In this document: in pieces, positions 31,890-38,432 of the stretch
Layout of the letters: each line of letters starts with the position of its first letter
Numbering within the stretch: the stretch's first letter is position 1
Assembly (NCBI GenBank): GCA_009015555.1
Contig: GCA_009015555.1_3613.1
Length of the DNA stretch: 64,000 bases
Source: a phage
Reading direction: 5' to 3' (one strand)
Notes under the pieces: model-generated
Databases searched by the model: none
Told to the model about the DNA's origin: nothing
Seen by the model: only the letters and a program-made list of their open reading frames with translations
Position numbers and translations under genes: made by a program

Positions 31890-31917
31890 AGTATACCTAC
31901 ATTCCCGTAGAAGTCAA
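31890..31917 (-). promoter_or_regulatory. sigma70-like promoter (TTGACT, 16-nt spacer, TATACT)
   Basis: -35 at 31917..31912 and -10 at 31895..31890 read on minus strand; overlaps stop of upstream gene. Confidence 0.4.
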
Positions 31918-32564
31918 CTTACTTTTGAAATTACCAGTTTTTGAACGTAGCCCTGCAACAGGGCGTAAGTTACACCACCCACATAACTACCGCCGACAGA
32001 GAGTCTCTCTCCGGCACCGAACCAGTTGGGAACAGAAAAGTTCTGAACTTCCCCGCTCACCATATTTCTCACACGGATCTGCCGAGAGTCCGGGTAAGTT
32101 TCGATCCGCAGATTAAAAACTTGGCCCTGATTACCATTGATCGAGCAACGAACATAATTTCCGCTGTTGTCTGTTGGGAACAATTGGTGCCCTCCAACCC
32201 CAACCATGCCATAATGCGCCAGTCCGGCGACGATCCTTGTGACGTAATCGCCAGAACACCACACCATCTGGGTTGCAGAAGGACTAAGGCTTTGGAAAAC
32301 AACCTCAATCACCATAGGATCTGTGGATAGATCCACTGAATACTGAGTTTGGAAATACCCTTGGCCTTGGGCAGGTATGAACTGCATGACCCTTCCAATC
32401 CCTGCAACATCGACTATCCTTGGGCCTGTGCCGACCAAAGAGAAGGTGTGGTTTTCAGACCAGTCCTTCAAAACAGTCTCGCCGAGAGATTGCCGTGTGG
32501 CATCCACGTAGAGAATGGCATCCTCTTTGCGAGATGACTTCCCTATAATCATTATCTCGTTCAT
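31914..32564 (-). CDS. N-tag family paralog E: ConA/LamG-like jelly-roll protein (N-terminus MNEIMIIGKSS)
   Basis: Track ORF 31914..32567 trimmed to ATG; LamG-like pattern; N-terminal motif shared with four other genes. Confidence 0.55.
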   Translation of the reverse strand: MNEIMIIGKSSRKEDAILYVDATRQSLGETVLKDWSENHTFSLVGTGPRIVDVAGIGRVMQFIPAQGQGYFQTQYSVDLSTDPMVIEVVFQSLSPSATQMVWCSGDYVTRIVAGLAHYGMVGVGGHQLFPTDNSGNYVRCSINGNQGQVFNLRIETYPDSRQIRVRNMVSGEVQNFSVPNWFGAGERLSVGGSYVGGVTYALLQGYVQKLVISKVS

Positions 32565-32935
32565 CAATTTCTCCGAGGTTTTAAAACACCTGATTTTGAA
32601 AGAGGGATCTCATCGGCATCTCTGCCTTTCTCTCCATCTTTCCCGTCCTTCCCGGCCTTTCCTGGTTTGCCCTCCGGGCCTGCCGGACCCGCTGGACCTG
32701 GCACATAAACATACTGCGGTTCAGTAAACGCTGCAATAAACAGCAGTATTGCCCAAGCAACACCATTCACCCACAGTGCAGGCCACATTGAAAAGAATAC
32801 CGACAGCGCCAGAATCAACATCGTATTCCGATGTTCTCTCTTGCGGGCCACGAAGTAAGGGACCAGCCAGAACAGTACAAATACCCAGGCCGAGCCTGAG
32901 AACAACGACCACATCACATCGACAAACTCTGTCAT
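32564..32935 (-). CDS. membrane protein with short collagen-like segment
   Basis: 123 aa; three hydrophobic helices then [27 protein letters not shown]. Confidence 0.5.
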   Translation of the reverse strand: MTEFVDVMWSLFSGSAWVFVLFWLVPYFVARKREHRNTMLILALSVFFSMWPALWVNGVAWAILLFIAAFTEPQYVYVPGPAGPAGPEGKPGKAGKDGKDGEKGRDADEIPLSKSGVLKPRRN

Positions 32936-33228
32936 TTGATCAGCCCCTCTTGGATTTTAATTTGGAGGATCTCCGCATCGATCGAGTAGGTATTGCTGGT
33001 TCGGGTGTAATCTGCATCCCGGTATCGACACATCACACCTTTGGCCTCGCCGTCTCGCTGGACCACCCAGCTTGTGTCATAATTGGGTTGGCTCTTACAC
33101 ACCTTGTGTAATGCCACTACCTCGGTCGGCATCAGCGATTTCTTCGACTCATAATGATCTGGTTTCCCGTCATCGAAAGGATTGCATCCCGAAAGCAGGA
33201 GCGCCGTTAATAAAATCAGTTTCTTCAC
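32932..33228 (-). CDS. lipoprotein (signal peptide with lipobox LLSGC)
   Basis: Track ORF 32932..33306; likely GTG start giving MKKLILLTALLLSGC-NPF; preceded by GGGGGTGG. Confidence 0.45.
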   Translation of the reverse strand: MKKLILLTALLLSGCNPFDDGKPDHYESKKSLMPTEVVALHKVCKSQPNYDTSWVVQRDGEAKGVMCRYRDADYTRTSNTYSIDAEILQIKIQEGLIK

Positions 33229-33377
33229 ATCCACCCCCAGTATTTCGAAAGTTCTGTGGAGATCATGATCCCCACGACATAAGTCATTGAGAAAACCACG
33301 GTCCAATACATGAACCGGGTCCCAGCCATCGCTACCATAATGAACAATATAACAAAAGTTTCAGGCGCGATCAACAT
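33225..33377 (-). CDS. small membrane protein (50 aa, 2 TM), not in ORF track
   Basis: ATG 1 nt after upstream stop; hydrophobic MLIAPETFVILFIMVAMAG...; stop overlaps lipoprotein start. Confidence 0.35.
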   Translation of the reverse strand: MLIAPETFVILFIMVAMAGTRFMYWTVVFSMTYVVGIMISTELSKYWGWM

Positions 33378-33790
33378 TTTGTTGCTCCCTTGCGACGTTT
33401 ATCTTCATCTTCAATAGCCTCGTCTTCTGCCCGGGCCAAGATCTGATAGATTGTCTCTGGATTGTCGAGGAACTCTGTATACTTCTTGATCCTCACTGCC
33501 AACTTGCCACGGATCTTACGCTCCTGCATCTGCTGGTTCTGCATGAAACCACGCTGGTACAGGATGAAATAGTATACCTGCTTTGCTCGATTACGATCGC
33601 AACCCAGTGCATGGGCGAAGTCATTGAAGCAGTCGCTGTCGTGTTTGACCATGAAAATGTCCCAGAACACCTCACGCGCTTTTGCAAGCTCCTCGGGAGT
33701 CACTTTTGGGAACTCCGGGTCGCCATAGCGTGGATGCTTTTTGCCAGCCCACTCGGGTTTTGCCGGATAAACTTTTCTTGTATTGCTCAT
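33371..33790 (-). CDS. hypothetical protein
   Basis: Track ORF 33371..33805 starts at TTG; ATG at 33790 has GAGGAG upstream. Confidence 0.5.
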   Translation of the reverse strand: MSNTRKVYPAKPEWAGKKHPRYGDPEFPKVTPEELAKAREVFWDIFMVKHDSDCFNDFAHALGCDRNRAKQVYYFILYQRGFMQNQQMQERKIRGKLAVRIKKYTEFLDNPETIYQILARAEDEAIEDEDKRRKGATKC

Positions 33791-33828
33791 TTCATCACTC
33801 CTCAAGGTAAAACGTTATTCCACAGGAT

Positions 33829-33844
33829 GGGGGCCGAAGCCCCC
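33829..33844 (-). promoter_or_regulatory. GC hairpin with UUCG loop (GGGGGCUUCGGCCCCC), no U-tract
   Basis: Perfect stem in intergenic region after gene 33857..34549. Confidence 0.4.
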
Positions 33845-33856
33845 GATATTACTTAC

Positions 33857-34549
33857 TTAATCACAGGACGAGGAACTTGAACCGCTGTCATACGAACTGG
33901 AGTCGTAAGAACTGCTGGAAGAAGAACCATAGCTCGAACTGCTGTAGCTGTCGTCAGAAGACGAGTAGCTTGAACTGTACGTTGAGGTCGCAGAGGAACT
34001 GCGGCACTCTTCCACCGGGGCAGGCTGCGCCGCCGGGGTGTCGTCACTCAGGATCGCTCCGGCTGCATAGCCGTACATCGCCGCGTTTACGGGATCAATA
34101 CCGTGAGAAACGACATGACCACCTGTGCTGTGCGGGGTATCGTCAAGACGTCGGCTTGGGGCCGGAGAACCGGACATCTTAGCCTGCTTGATGAACTGAC
34201 GCTTCGCCTTCGGCGGTAGAGTCTTACCCTTCGCATACGCTGGCAGTTCCACACCTTTAAGCTGCTCGTTCAGAGGCTTTGGTGGGGTCTTTTCCACCGG
34301 GGCCTCACGAACAGTCTGGCGAGTTTCTACTGTCACCACGCGCTTGGTGTTTTCTGCTACATTTGCACTTACCAAGACTTGGTTCTTTTCCAGAGGCTCG
34401 TCCAGCGGACGGGTTTCAGCCTTGGTAAAGCGTACCTGACTTACGGTCTGGGCCTGAGATTGTTTGGCGATATACTCGTCAACCTTTGCGTCTTCGATCT
34501 TCGCCGGGGCGAACAGGGCTTTGATCCACGCCACAAATTTCTTGATCAT
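33857..34549 (-). CDS. hypothetical protein with Ser/Tyr-rich low-complexity C-terminal tail
   Basis: 230 aa; RBS AGGAGA; C-terminus SSSATSTYSSSYSSSDDSYSSSSYGSSSSSSYDSSSYDSGSSSSSCD. Confidence 0.55.
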   Translation of the reverse strand: MIKKFVAWIKALFAPAKIEDAKVDEYIAKQSQAQTVSQVRFTKAETRPLDEPLEKNQVLVSANVAENTKRVVTVETRQTVREAPVEKTPPKPLNEQLKGVELPAYAKGKTLPPKAKRQFIKQAKMSGSPAPSRRLDDTPHSTGGHVVSHGIDPVNAAMYGYAAGAILSDDTPAAQPAPVEECRSSSATSTYSSSYSSSDDSYSSSSYGSSSSSSYDSSSYDSGSSSSSCD

Positions 34550-34761
34550 ACTTTCTCTCCTTTCTCGTTGAGAACAGTTAGGTAATTGGTGCCCAGCAAG
34601 CCAGCGGAGATCAGATCATCAATACCCGCCTGCCCGGTAAGGCCGTCTTCGAAACAATCCTTCAGATTGTCGTTGTTGAGCATCCAGTTATTGGCGGCTT
34701 CCTCTGAAGTAAACAGAACGCCCTCCTGACCAACATCCCATTCGCAGAAAATCTCAAACAT
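34546..34761 (-). CDS. hypothetical acidic protein
   Basis: 71-aa ORF with RBS GAGGAGGAAG; stop overlaps next start. Confidence 0.5.
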   Translation of the reverse strand: MFEIFCEWDVGQEGVLFTSEEAANNWMLNNDNLKDCFEDGLTGQAGIDDLISAGLLGTNYLTVLNEKGEKV

Positions 34762-34762
34762 C

Positions 34763-35092
34763 TCACTTCCTCCTCTTATTGTAAACTTCCCTCGCCCATT
34801 TCACAGCCGCTTCAAGTACGTCTCCGTGACATGGGTGGGGATGACAAAAGCATACCAGATCTTTACCTTCCAAATCAAGAAGATCTTCAATGGTAATTTT
34901 CCCGGTACGAATCTGTTCCCACAACCAAACACGGTAGCGTTCGATAGTGGCCCCTCTCGGCTCGTCTTTCGACAGCTTGAAGGGGTTTGCAAACTTAGAC
35001 TGCTGTAGCCCGAAGTGGGGCATCCTGCGTCCTATGTATACAGCATTATCCGGGATTACTTTACTCAGGTGGTAAAAGTTAAGGACCGCCAT
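34763..35092 (-). CDS. DUF4326-like protein
   Basis: 109 aa; N-terminal YIGRRMP...SKFANPF and C-terminal CFCHPHPCHGD Cys/His cluster resemble DUF4326 family as I recall it. Confidence 0.4.
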   Translation of the reverse strand: MAVLNFYHLSKVIPDNAVYIGRRMPHFGLQQSKFANPFKLSKDEPRGATIERYRVWLWEQIRTGKITIEDLLDLEGKDLVCFCHPHPCHGDVLEAAVKWAREVYNKRRK

Positions 35093-38359: not shown

Positions 38360-38388
38360 ATTATGCGGGAAATCAGGAAGGAAGTCAA
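38360..38388 (-). promoter_or_regulatory. sigma70-like promoter (TTGACT, 17-nt spacer, CATAAT)
   Basis: Consensus-like hexamers on minus strand between terminator and gene 37962..38330. Confidence 0.5.
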
Positions 38389-38400
38389 CAATTTTGTGCA

Positions 38401-38427
38401 AATAAAAAGGCCACCCGAAGGTGGCCT
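38401..38427 (-). terminator. rho-independent terminator
   Basis: GGCCACC-TTCG-GGTGGCC stem followed by TTTTTATT on minus strand. Confidence 0.55.
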
Positions 38428-38432
38428 TAATC

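What the first reader, a model, noticed from the sequence alone, without database searches (positions are those of the whole stretch)
33857..34000. Ser/Tyr-rich low-complexity tail
Gene 33857..34549 ends in a 47-residue stretch that is almost entirely Ser, Tyr and Asp. This is unusual for a phage early protein and could be a modification substrate or a self-associating region.
Basis: seen in the sequence. Interest (0 to 1): 0.4.

Follow-up and report, generated by a model that had tools for sequence, protein, structure and literature searches.

The report
Conserved serine-tyrosine tail, phage protein
A small phage protein of unknown function really does end in a floppy tail made almost only of serine, tyrosine and aspartate. 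The tail is kept by evolution and has a fixed 20-residue tip, so it is probably a flexible docking arm held at the cell membrane, but its target is unknown.

Summary
Gene 33857..34549 (minus strand, 230 aa) ends in 47 residues with 30 Ser, 6 Tyr and 5 Asp, far beyond chance. All six Ser codons are used and there is no DNA repeat.

The window is a Certrevirus (CR3/CR8-like, Vequintavirinae). The protein belongs to phrog_13005, function unknown.

The tail is present in about 100 relatives, down to roughly 30% body identity. It has two parts:
- a variable, indel-rich Ser/Tyr spacer (27-54 aa overall);
- a nearly invariant tip, SSSSYDSxSYDSGSSxSSCD-COOH.

Two Cys bracket the tail in most members. 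AlphaFold gives pLDDT below 50 for the tail.

Remote relatives keep the hydrophobic patch and the tail but replace the N-terminal amphipathic helix with a true transmembrane helix. Its charge pattern places the tail in the cytoplasm.

Best reading (confidence about 0.35): a membrane-tethered early protein whose disordered tail is a spacer plus a docking tip, or a multivalent aromatic/Asp motif array.

Not excluded: self-association, modification, metal binding, export to the periplasm. No modifying enzyme or partner was identified, and the function remains unknown.

It is a real, unusual but uncharacterised feature of moderate interest.

The parts
33857..34549 (-). CDS of the 230-aa protein (phrog_13005), stop codon included
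   Evidence: ORF list. PHROG match E=3.2e-149 over the full length. 94-98% identical to the CR8 and PBES02 orthologues, with CR3 differing at about 5 of 230 residues.
34511..34549 (-). N-terminal amphipathic helix MIKKFVAWIKALF (residues 1-13), the putative peripheral membrane anchor
   Evidence: K3 K4 W8 K10 L12 F13 are at least 90% conserved. AlphaFold predicts a helix at 3-12. Hydrophobic moment is 0.57. Remote relatives carry a real TM helix in its place.
34295..34450 (-). Variable beta-rich insert (residues 34-85), replaced or absent in some relatives
   Evidence: AlphaFold predicts strands at 35-80 with pLDDT 75-79. This is the most divergent segment: 72% nt identity to phiTE and 36% to F1M1E. 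It is missing in P0061, P0062 and P0066.
34175..34294 (-). Conserved basic motif TPPKPLNEQLKGVELPAYAKGKTLPPKAKRQFIKQAK (residues 86-125)
   Evidence: K91 L93 P103 Y105 L111 P112 P113 A115 K116 are invariant in 62 sequences.
34046..34102 (-). Small-residue hydrophobic patch GIDPVNAAMYGYAAGAILS (residues 150-168); start of the conserved C-terminal module
   Evidence: Too weakly hydrophobic for a TM helix here: Kyte-Doolittle 0.77 and Hessa dG +10.6 over 19 residues. AlphaFold helix at 153-163, low confidence. Conserved as D-x-x-L/A-x-G-A/Y-x-x-G-Y-x-x-A-D in remote relatives.
34004..34006 (-). Cys182 (VEEC), the first of the two Cys that bracket the tail
   Evidence: 84% column conservation. 91 of 112 family members have exactly two Cys, one at each end of the tail.
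33920..34000 (-). Variable Ser/Tyr/Asp spacer (residues 184-210)
   Evidence: Column majority 0.37-0.77 with up to 58% gaps. In-frame indels give total tail lengths of 27-54 aa.
33860..33919 (-). Conserved tip SSSSYDSSSYDSGSSSSSCD-COOH (residues 211-230)
   Evidence: S214 Y215 D216 S217 S219 D221 S225 C229 D230 are at least 92% conserved and S228 is invariant. The same signature appears in remote relatives, with the terminal Cys replaced by Trp or Phe in some.
33828..33845 (-). GC-rich hairpin (GGGGGC-UUCG-GCCCCC) 10 nt after the stop, with no U tract
   Evidence: Conserved in all Certrevirus loci. A5-4 and SSBI34 have different but still self-complementary sequences there.
33371..33790 (-). 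Downstream 139-aa gene (phrog_12333), a syntenic neighbour in all distant relatives examined
   Evidence: BLASTP links the downstream genes of the window, A5-4, SSBI34, L018 and L019, E 1e-37 to 6e-10 against the window copy. Alignment A3. No Pfam or PDB match, and the fold search was not significant.
34546..34761 (-). Upstream 71-aa gene (phrog_9656), whose stop overlaps the start as ATGA
   Evidence: Conserved upstream in A5-4 and SSBI34.

Best explanation
The 47-residue tail is a selected, intrinsically disordered C-terminal arm of a phage protein that is probably expressed early and held at the cytoplasmic face of the inner membrane by its N-terminal amphipathic helix.

The arm has two parts. 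The first is a length-variable Ser/Tyr/Asp spacer (residues 184-210). The second is a nearly invariant 20-residue tip, SSSSYDSxSYDSGSSxSSCD-COOH. In it, aromatic or Cys residues followed by Asp recur every 4-7 residues, and the chain ends in a free 'hydrophobic-Asp' carboxyl terminus.

I propose it works as a flexible docking tail. The tip, helped by the upstream Tyr-Asp units, would bind a partner that is conserved across Enterobacterales hosts or encoded by the phage, and so bring or hold that partner at the membrane.

Shown: the anatomy, the conservation, the protein-level selection, the predicted disorder, and the interchange of N-terminal helix and TM helix in relatives.

Inferred: membrane tethering, cytoplasmic location, docking function, early expression. 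The partner is unknown.
For: 1. Selection acts on the protein, not on DNA. All six Ser codons are used and there is no DNA tandem repeat. Where the DNA has diverged, changes in the tail are mostly synonymous: 14 synonymous against 3 non-synonymous versus KaOmega, 14 against 1 versus POP15, 7 against 2 versus PBES02.

2. The tail is deeply conserved. It is present in 17 sequenced phages infecting Cronobacter, Pectobacterium, Enterobacter/Pantoea, Klebsiella, Escherichia and Salmonella, and in 102 of 112 distinct family proteins.

3. It has a spacer-plus-tip structure. No column in 184-210 reaches 80% conservation and gaps reach 58%. In 211-230, 15 of the 20 columns are at least 80% conserved, 10 of them at least 92%. 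97 of 112 proteins end in Cys-Asp.

4. The pattern is not random. Aromatic residues are more evenly spaced than in shuffles in 27 of 28 non-redundant tails. [Y/W/F/C]-Asp dipeptides are enriched at p<0.05 in 68% of them. In remote relatives the terminal Cys is replaced by Trp or Phe (SSWD, SSFD, GGDF), which points to a hydrophobic contact rather than thiol chemistry.

5. Disorder is predicted. pLDDT is below 50 over nearly all of 168-230 with a 62-sequence alignment, and the tail falls on the disordered side of the charge-hydropathy boundary.

6. Membrane tethering and a cytoplasmic location are supported. The N-terminal helix is amphipathic, with moment 0.42-0.70 and a conserved Lys inside it. 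Relatives sharing the patch-plus-tail module carry a strong N-terminal TM helix instead (Kyte-Doolittle 2.5-3.3). That helix has 0 basic residues before it and, in 9 of 10 cases, 3-7 after it, which means N-out/C-in. Their second patch is not TM-competent in 9 of 10 cases.

7. Near-identical tails (1-3 differences in 47 residues) occur in phages of three host genera whose N-terminal halves differ strongly. This implies a partner that does not vary with host.
Against: No partner has been identified and there is no experimental evidence of any kind.

The AlphaFold model is poor overall (mean pLDDT 54.7, pTM 0.19). Low pLDDT is only a proxy for disorder.

The topology argument is borrowed from remote relatives, and P0101 has a second patch that could span the membrane.

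The module is dispensable in some lineages. P0059, seen on 48 contigs, has an in-frame deletion of it. DU_PP_I has a nonsense mutation at the Cys codon.

Synonymous counts inside a Ser-rich stretch are inflated by alignment ambiguity.

Even spacing of Tyr fits homotypic association equally well.
Confidence: 0.35

Rival explanations
1. Homotypic 'sticker-and-spacer' tail. Evenly spaced Tyr (and Cys) act as stickers in a poly-Ser spacer. They would drive weak self-association, or clustering of the membrane-tethered protein, in the manner of FUS-type low-complexity domains.
For: The composition is Ser/Tyr-rich, with motifs such as SYSSSSYGSS that resemble the FUS segments SYSGYS and SYSSYGQS (LARKS; bioRxiv 10.1101/153817, PMC8551513). 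Aromatic residues are more evenly spaced than in shuffles in 27 of 28 tails. Tethering to a membrane would lower the concentration needed for clustering (inference).
Against: The tail is only 27-54 aa. It carries 5 Asp plus the C-terminus and no basic residue, giving a net charge of about -6 that opposes self-association. It has only 2 Gly, whereas Gly is a hallmark of LARKS (PMC8551513). The strongest conservation lies in a specific terminal motif rather than in composition, which points to a specific binding site.
Confidence: 0.2
2. Modification substrate. The Ser/Tyr hydroxyls (or the Cys) are phosphorylated, glycosylated or otherwise modified by a host or phage enzyme. The tail would then act as a decoy or sink, or be switched on by the modification.
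For: 36 of the 47 residues carry hydroxyl groups. Asp next to Tyr or Ser resembles acidophilic kinase sites (own knowledge, a lead only). Tail composition is under purifying selection.
Against: No kinase, glycosyltransferase or other protein-modifying enzyme was found among the nine neighbouring genes. None is a consistent neighbour in remote loci either. The AAA_33 genes in L021 and L025 belong to RNA-repair or nucleotide-metabolism clusters. Replacement of the terminal Cys by Trp or Phe, and of Tyr by His or Trp, in relatives does not fit a hydroxyl-specific modification.
Confidence: 0.12
3. Metal- or cation-binding tail. The recurring Tyr, His, Cys and Asp side chains on a flexible Ser backbone would chelate a metal (Zn, Fe, Ca), with acid-plus-Cys sites at both ends (EEC ... 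SCD).
For: The residues at the periodic 'sticker' positions across the family are Tyr, His, Cys and Asp, all of them metal ligands. Exactly two Cys bracket the tail in 91 of 112 members.
Against: Several relatives have Trp or Phe at these positions and no Cys at all (P0100, P0103, P0105, P0107). There is no recognisable metal-binding motif and no Pfam match.
Confidence: 0.08
4. Exported tail. The hydrophobic patch at 150-168 spans the inner membrane (N-in, C-out). The acidic, Lys/Arg-free tail would then lie in the periplasm, closed into a loop by a Cys182-Cys229 disulfide, and act on the envelope, for example in superinfection exclusion.
For: The segment before the patch is strongly basic and the segment after it is acidic. 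The tail has almost no Lys or Arg. There is an even number of Cys, confined to the tail, in 91 of 112 members. Neighbouring genes encode envelope proteins: a lipobox ORF and membrane ORFs. The patch is TM-like in a few relatives (P0101, SSBI34, P0072).
Against: The patch is far below TM hydrophobicity in the window protein and in most relatives (Kyte-Doolittle 0.5-1.5, predicted dG +2.5 to +18). The N-terminal helix has a conserved Lys in its core, so it is not a signal peptide. In relatives with a real N-terminal TM helix, the positive-inside rule puts the rest of the protein in the cytoplasm. Cys is interchangeable with Trp or Phe.
Confidence: 0.07
5. No specific function. The tail would be a tolerated low-complexity expansion produced by replication slippage, or a passive solubility or spacer segment.
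For: Length varies through indels (27-54 aa). The module has been lost in some lineages (P0059, P0087, P0092, P0093).
Against: There is no DNA repeat and all six Ser codons are mixed. Synonymous changes greatly outnumber non-synonymous ones. The terminal motif is conserved across proteins with about 30% body identity and across different N-terminal architectures.
Confidence: 0.05

Closest known systems
phrog_13005 and Pfam DUF7206 (PF23836), uncharacterised phage protein families
   Same: The protein matches phrog_13005 over its full length (E=3.2e-149). DUF7206 covers the C-terminal part, Ser/Tyr/Asp tail included, of the distant relative P0086 (65 bits, residues 113-194). P0086 is tied to this family by profile search (E=7.7e-31).
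   Different: Neither family has a known function. The window protein itself scores only 12.5 bits against DUF7206, below the 25.6-bit cutoff. No paper in the searched library mentions DUF7206.
[quoted passage not shown]
   Same: The design is the same: a low-complexity, length-tolerant disordered linker ending in a short, conserved, acidic tip with a hydrophobic residue next to the free carboxyl terminus. This is a functional analogy for 'spacer plus docking tip'.
   Different: There is no sequence relationship. SSB's linker is Gly/Gln/Pro-rich and its tip ends ...DDDIPF, with the hydrophobic residue last. Here the linker is Ser/Tyr-rich and the tip ends Cys-Asp. The body is not an OB fold, and the protein is probably membrane-tethered rather than DNA-bound.
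FUS-type low-complexity domains and LARKS segments (bioRxiv 10.1101/153817; PMC8551513)
   Same: Both are Ser/Tyr-rich with regularly spaced aromatic residues. Motifs such as SYSSSSYGSS resemble FUS SYSGYS and SYSSYGQS.
   Different: This tail is much shorter (47 aa against more than 150). It is Gly- and Gln-poor, carries a net charge of about -6, and has a sequence-specific conserved terminus. No phase behaviour has been tested.
Amphipathic membrane-targeting helices of MreB (N-terminal MLKKFRGMF), MinD and FtsA (own knowledge, not tested here)
   Same: The N-terminus MIKKFVAWIKALF has the same look: a basic, amphipathic helix of about 11 residues at a chain end. It is interchangeable with a TM helix in relatives.
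   Different: This is only a resemblance recalled from memory, supported by a hydrophobic-moment calculation. There are no binding data.
Serine-rich tails that are known modification sites: class IIb microcins (siderophore attached to the C-terminal Ser) and Gram-positive serine-rich-repeat or Ser-Asp-repeat adhesins (O-glycosylated). Own knowledge.
   Same: They share a Ser-dominated low-complexity C-terminal or repeat region.
   Different: This protein has no leader or signal peptide, no LPXTG motif, and no maturation or glycosyltransferase genes nearby. The tail ends in Cys-Asp, not Ser. The repeat is degenerate and short, and the tail is probably cytoplasmic.

Membership tests
phrog_13005 (phage protein family, unknown function) | Significant full-length match to the family profile | tested here: met
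   E=3.2e-149, 496 bits, residues 1-230 aligned to profile positions 1-230 of 230.
Pfam DUF7206 (PF23836) | Score at or above the gathering threshold of 25.6 bits | tested here: not met
   The window protein scores 12.5 bits, E=0.24, on the tail only. Only 3 of 62 family members pass E<0.01. The relative P0086 scores 65 bits. The relationship is therefore transitive, not direct.
Vequintavirinae / Certrevirus orthologue group (CR3_041, CR8_042, phiTE_004, CB7_41) | Orthologous position and high identity in sequenced Certrevirus genomes | tested here: met
   95-97% nt identity over 3 kb to CR8 and CR3. The gene order is the same: 71-aa gene, this gene, then a gene of about 139 aa. Protein identity is 98% to CR8 and 94% to PBES02; CR3 differs at about 5 of 230 residues.
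FUS-like prion-like / LARKS low-complexity domain | Low-complexity composition dominated by Ser/Tyr/Gly/Gln, with few charged residues | tested here: not met
   Ser is 64% and Tyr 13%, but there are only 2 Gly and no Gln. There are 5 Asp, and the net charge is about -6.
FUS-like prion-like / LARKS low-complexity domain | Regularly spaced aromatic 'stickers' | tested here: met
   The spacing coefficient of variation is below the shuffle mean in 27 of 28 non-redundant tails, with p<0.05 in 32% of them.
FUS-like prion-like / LARKS low-complexity domain | Reversible self-assembly (hydrogel, fibril or condensate) of the isolated domain | not testable with these tools
   This needs purified protein.
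Integral membrane / tail-anchored protein with an exported C-terminus | A hydrophobic segment able to span the membrane, just before the tail | tested here: not met
   The best 19-residue stretch, GIDPVNAAMYGYAAGAILS, has Kyte-Doolittle 0.77 and summed Hessa dG +10.6 kcal/mol. The same patch is sub-threshold in 9 of 10 TM-anchored relatives.
Sec/SPI-exported protein | N-terminal signal peptide with an uninterrupted hydrophobic core | tested here: not met
   The hydrophobic stretch FVAWIKALFAPA is interrupted by Lys10, which is at least 90% conserved. The helix is amphipathic, with moment 0.57. No dedicated signal-peptide predictor was available.
Serine-rich repeat / Ser-Asp-repeat glycoproteins; class IIb microcins | Export signal plus dedicated modification or maturation genes in the locus | tested here: not met
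   No such domain was found in the nine flanking genes by Pfam or PHROGs. There is no leader peptide.
Early gene of Certrevirus | Transcription early in infection from a sigma-70-like phage early promoter | tested here: inconclusive
   The gene lies in the array of small co-directional ORFs that PMC7344957 calls the 'likely early gene region'. The nearest consensus-like promoter with a terminator is at 38360-38428 on the minus strand. The published consensus TGTTGAC-N16-19-TATAAT has no exact match in the window. No expression data exist.

The most novel reading that the evidence does not exclude
The tail would be a phage-borne, membrane-tethered 'sticker-and-spacer' domain. Its periodic Tyr/Cys-Asp units on a poly-Ser chain would drive multivalent clustering, forming a two-dimensional condensate at the inner membrane early in infection. 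This would concentrate a host or phage client, perhaps the product of the conserved downstream gene. If so, it would be a bacterial-virus counterpart of eukaryotic prion-like low-complexity domains, present as a portable module in several groups of large lytic phages.
Probability: 0.1. Interest if true: 0.7.

Novelty: new variant of a known kind. Interest (0 to 1): 0.35.

Why it matters
Most early genes of large lytic phages have no known function, and low-complexity tails in them are usually dismissed as noise. This tail can be shown by sequence alone to be under selection. It also has a definable motif (spacer plus SSSSYDSxSYDSGSSxSSCD tip) and forms a portable module shared by membrane-anchored proteins in several phage groups.

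That gives a concrete experimental handle, namely a 20-residue peptide bait. With it one could look for a host or phage target that appears to be conserved across Enterobacterales.

If the tail proves to be a docking or clustering device at the membrane, it would add a disordered short-motif mechanism to the known ways phages take over their hosts. If not, the cost of testing is small.

Tried and rejected
- **DNA-slippage or repeat origin.** Rejected: Tandem Repeats Finder found nothing, and all six Ser codons are mixed.
- **Overlapping gene in another frame or on the opposite strand.** Two alternative frames are open over the tail in many relatives but are interrupted in PcCB7V, DU_PP_I and, for one frame, the A5-4 group and SSBI34. 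Open frames are expected from Ser-codon composition, so this was rejected.
- **RNA element.** There was no Rfam hit at gathering threshold in the window or in the phiTE locus.
- **Unusual DNA-level conservation of the tail.** The window and phiTE tails are almost identical while the N-terminal half is about 72% identical. This is mosaicism of the whole C-terminal half. Other pairs show ample synonymous change in the tail.
- **Transmembrane-helix or periplasmic-loop idea.** Weakened by the hydrophobicity values and by the topology of TM-anchored relatives.
- **Structure route.** The AlphaFold model of the protein is poor (pLDDT 54.7). Foldseek against viral models found only a homologue. The profile search of PDB sequences found nothing.
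- **Downstream partner gene.** It has no Pfam or PDB hit. The single-sequence AlphaFold model is poor (pLDDT 61) and all Foldseek matches against PDB have E>2.
- **Family libraries.** NCBIfam gave no significant family match: nothing for the window protein, and only one chance-level hit (transketolase, E=0.03) for a relative. PADLOC was not run.
- **Literature.** Searches for DUF7206, for polyserine phage tails and for Vequintavirinae early-gene transcriptomics returned nothing on this gene. The CB7 paper does not mention CB7_41.
- **tblastn.** Its low-complexity filter cut every match at residue 183, so tails had to be read from the fetched loci.
Full report
**Observation.** The minus-strand ORF 33857..34549 encodes 230 aa. 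It has a GGAGAG ribosome-binding site, and its start codon overlaps the stop of the upstream 71-aa gene as ATGA. Codons 184-230 (34000..33860) read SSSATSTYSSSYSSSDDSYSSSSYGSSSSSSYDSSSYDSGSSSSSCD. That is 30 Ser, 6 Tyr and 5 Asp in 47 residues. With the window's own Ser frequency of 6.4%, the chance of at least 30 Ser in 47 residues is 1.7e-24 per position. No other six-frame ORF stretch in the window exceeds 38% Ser. All six Ser codons are used about equally and Tandem Repeats Finder reports nothing. The bias therefore exists at protein level, not as a DNA repeat. The observation and its coordinates are confirmed.

**Where it comes from.** The surrounding 3 kb is 95-97% identical to Cronobacter phages CR8 and CR3, and it also matches other Certrevirus genomes of the Vequintavirinae. 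The protein is phrog_13005, function unknown, at E=3.2e-149. It has no Pfam family above threshold; DUF7206 scores 12.5 bits against a cutoff of 25.6. The gene lies in a co-directional array of small ORFs, none of them functionally annotated. The CB7 paper calls this array the 'likely early gene region' on the basis of promoter predictions (PMC7344957). In the window, the nearest consensus-like promoter with a terminator on this strand is at 38360-38428. The published consensus has no exact match. 'Early' is therefore an inference.

**Conservation test.** tblastn found the gene in 32 phage records, but its low-complexity filter cut every alignment at residue 183. I therefore fetched 17 loci and translated the annotated genes. 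Every one carries a Ser/Tyr/Asp tail. The CDS lengths differ by multiples of three (597-732 nt). All end in ...Cys-Asp except DU_PP_I, where the Cys codon has become TGA and GAT TAA still follows.

A search of 5.8 billion proteins gave 86 relatives, and a profile search over 1.84 billion cluster representatives added more. Among 112 distinct sequences:
- 102 have a tail of 27-54 aa, median 45;
- 97 end in Cys-Asp;
- 91 have exactly two Cys, one just before the tail (VEEC) and one at the penultimate position.

The exceptions are a few frameshifted or truncated entries and P0059, seen on 48 contigs, which has an in-frame deletion of the whole C-terminal module.

**Selection.** Where the DNA has diverged, tail changes are mostly synonymous: 14 synonymous against 3 non-synonymous versus KaOmega, 14 against 1 versus POP15, and 7 against 2 versus PBES02. 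The caveat is that Ser-rich alignments inflate synonymous counts. The near-identity of the tail DNA between the window and phiTE or CB7 reflects mosaicism of the whole C-terminal half, not a special DNA element. Phages of Cronobacter, Pectobacterium and Enterobacter carry near-identical tails (1-3 differences in 47 residues) although residues 34-85 differ strongly.

**Anatomy of the tail.** Column statistics on a 62-sequence alignment split it in two. Residues 184-210 are variable and rich in indels, with a majority residue at 37-77% and up to 58% gaps. Residues 211-230 form a tip, SSSSYDSxSYDSGSSxSSCD. In the tip, S214 Y215 D216 S217 S219 D221 S225 C229 D230 are at least 92% conserved and S228 is invariant. 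The arrangement is not random. Aromatic residues are more evenly spaced than in shuffled tails in 27 of 28 non-redundant tails. [Y/W/F/C]-Asp dipeptides are enriched at p<0.05 in 68% of them. AlphaFold2 with the family alignment gives pLDDT below 50 over nearly all of 168-230. The tail also lies on the disordered side of the charge-hydropathy boundary.

**The rest of the protein.** From N- to C-terminus:
- an N-terminal amphipathic helix, MIKKFVAWIKALF, with a conserved Lys in its core;
- a variable beta-rich insert at 34-85, the only part with pLDDT above 70;
- an invariant basic motif, PPKxLNEQLKGVELPxYAxGKxLPPKAKRQFI;
- a short small-residue hydrophobic patch, GIDPVNAAMYGYAAGAILS;
- an acidic stretch with Cys182, then the tail.

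The patch is too weakly hydrophobic to be a transmembrane helix here (Kyte-Doolittle 0.77, summed Hessa dG +10.6).

**Remote relatives.** The profile search, and a second search with only the C-terminal module, found proteins of 120-190 aa that keep the patch (for example DNFLTGAMVGYxxAD) and the tail signature (...SSSSSYDSGSxSSDSGSSSSS[C/W/F]D) but have other N-termini. Some have another amphipathic helix (MGILKKIWNWL). Others have a genuine TM helix. In ten TM-anchored members:
- the helix is strongly hydrophobic (Kyte-Doolittle 1.7-3.3, at least 2.5 in nine of the ten);
- it has no basic residue before it and, in nine of the ten, 3-7 after it, which means N-out/C-in;
- the second patch is not TM-competent in nine of the ten.

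This supports membrane tethering and a cytoplasmic tail. It weakens my initial idea of a periplasmic, disulfide-closed loop. In these relatives the terminal Cys is often Trp or Phe (SSWD, SSFD, GGDF), which points to a hydrophobic contact rather than thiol chemistry.

One distant member, P0086, matches Pfam DUF7206 at 65 bits over its C-terminal part including the tail. The module is therefore already catalogued, but only as a domain of unknown function. No paper in the library mentions it. All loci examined are phage early or nucleotide-metabolism regions.

**Context.** The downstream gene (139 aa, phrog_12333) is a syntenic neighbour even in the most distant Vequintavirinae-like loci. Shared descent could explain that on its own. 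It has no Pfam or PDB match and no significant fold match. A GC-rich hairpin without a U tract follows the stop codon. In A5-4 and SSBI34 it is replaced by different self-complementary sequences.

**Interpretation.** The best-supported reading is a membrane-tethered, probably early phage protein whose C-terminus is a disordered spacer carrying a conserved docking tip, or an array of aromatic-Asp motifs. The design parallels the SSB disordered linker plus acidic tip that recruits many partners (PMC7145534). The target would be invariant across host genera or encoded by the phage. I put this at about 0.35.

The rivals are:
- homotypic sticker-spacer association (0.2), which fits the even Tyr spacing but is opposed by the short length, the net charge of -6, the low Gly content and the motif-level conservation (PMC8551513);
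- modification substrate (0.12), with no enzyme in the neighbourhood;
- metal binding (0.08);
- exported disulfide loop (0.07);
- no specific function (0.05).

None of these can be settled computationally. The decisive experiments are listed separately.

**Novelty and interest.** Low-complexity regions in phage proteins are usually Ala/Gly/Pro-rich and poor in aromatic residues and Cys (PMC6821194), so this tail is atypical. It is also demonstrably selected and modular. Still, the protein belongs to known, uncharacterised families. The same gene is already present in deposited genomes, annotated as hypothetical, and no function or partner emerged here. I rate it as a new variant of a known kind (a disordered spacer-plus-tip tail), with an interest of about 0.35.

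Noticed in passing
window 33828-33845 (minus strand); L013 and L017 just after the orthologous stop codons: A GC-rich hairpin (GGGGGC-UUCG-GCCCCC) sits 10 nt after the stop codon and has no U tract. It is conserved in all Certrevirus loci. In A5-4 (GGGGCCGAAAGGCTCC) and SSBI34 (GGGGCGTTATACGCCCC) it is replaced by different self-complementary sequences. The structure is therefore conserved rather than the sequence, perhaps as an RNA-stability or processing element. In SSBI34 it lies inside a TTGACA-N17-CATAAT promoter-like spacer.
   Followed up: partly
window 32932-33306 (minus strand): The ORF has a lipoprotein-type lipobox (LILLTALLLSGC), so a small phage lipoprotein is encoded two genes downstream. 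It belongs to phrog_15849, function unknown.
   Followed up: no
window 32564-32935 (minus strand): A 123-aa ORF has hydrophobic N-terminal segments and a collagen-like Gly-X-Y run ([25 protein letters not shown]). The Pfam Collagen match has E=6.6e-5, below the family threshold.
   Followed up: no
window 31914-32567 (minus strand): A 217-aa ORF matches phrog_6011, 'virion structural protein'. It lies directly next to the array of small ORFs presumed to be early.
   Followed up: no
L006 (DU_PP_I) 2134-2148; proteins P0059, P0055, P0075: Natural variants of the tail gene exist. DU_PP_I has TGA at the conserved Cys codon, with GAT TAA still following. P0059 (128 aa, on 48 contigs) has an in-frame deletion of the whole patch-plus-tail module but still ends ...SGSPSCD. 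P0055 and P0075 are frameshifted.
   Followed up: partly
L005 754-1296 and L006 754-1296, against window 34763-35092: PcCB7V and DU_PP_I carry an I-CreI-like homing endonuclease ORF at the position where the window and CR3/CR8 have the DUF4326 (NrdA.1-like) gene.
   Followed up: no
L021 4904-5407: The 168-aa gene next to the remote relative P0101 has a signal peptide, a Ser-rich stretch, a Gly-rich zipper, and a C-terminal ...GGMMLMDALTEDEGEKAL that resembles the family's hydrophobic patch. It may be a second, related module.
   Followed up: no
L023 3332-5483: The remote relative P0098 lies just after a PspA_IM30 gene, an Ion_trans channel gene and an 81-aa ORF in a 120-kb phage contig. This is a membrane-related neighbourhood.
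   Followed up: no
window 33846-33859: After the stop codon the window has TAAGTAAGTAATATC where CR3 and its relatives have TAAGTAATATC(C). This is a 4-nt TAAG duplication that creates a second in-frame stop.
   Followed up: no
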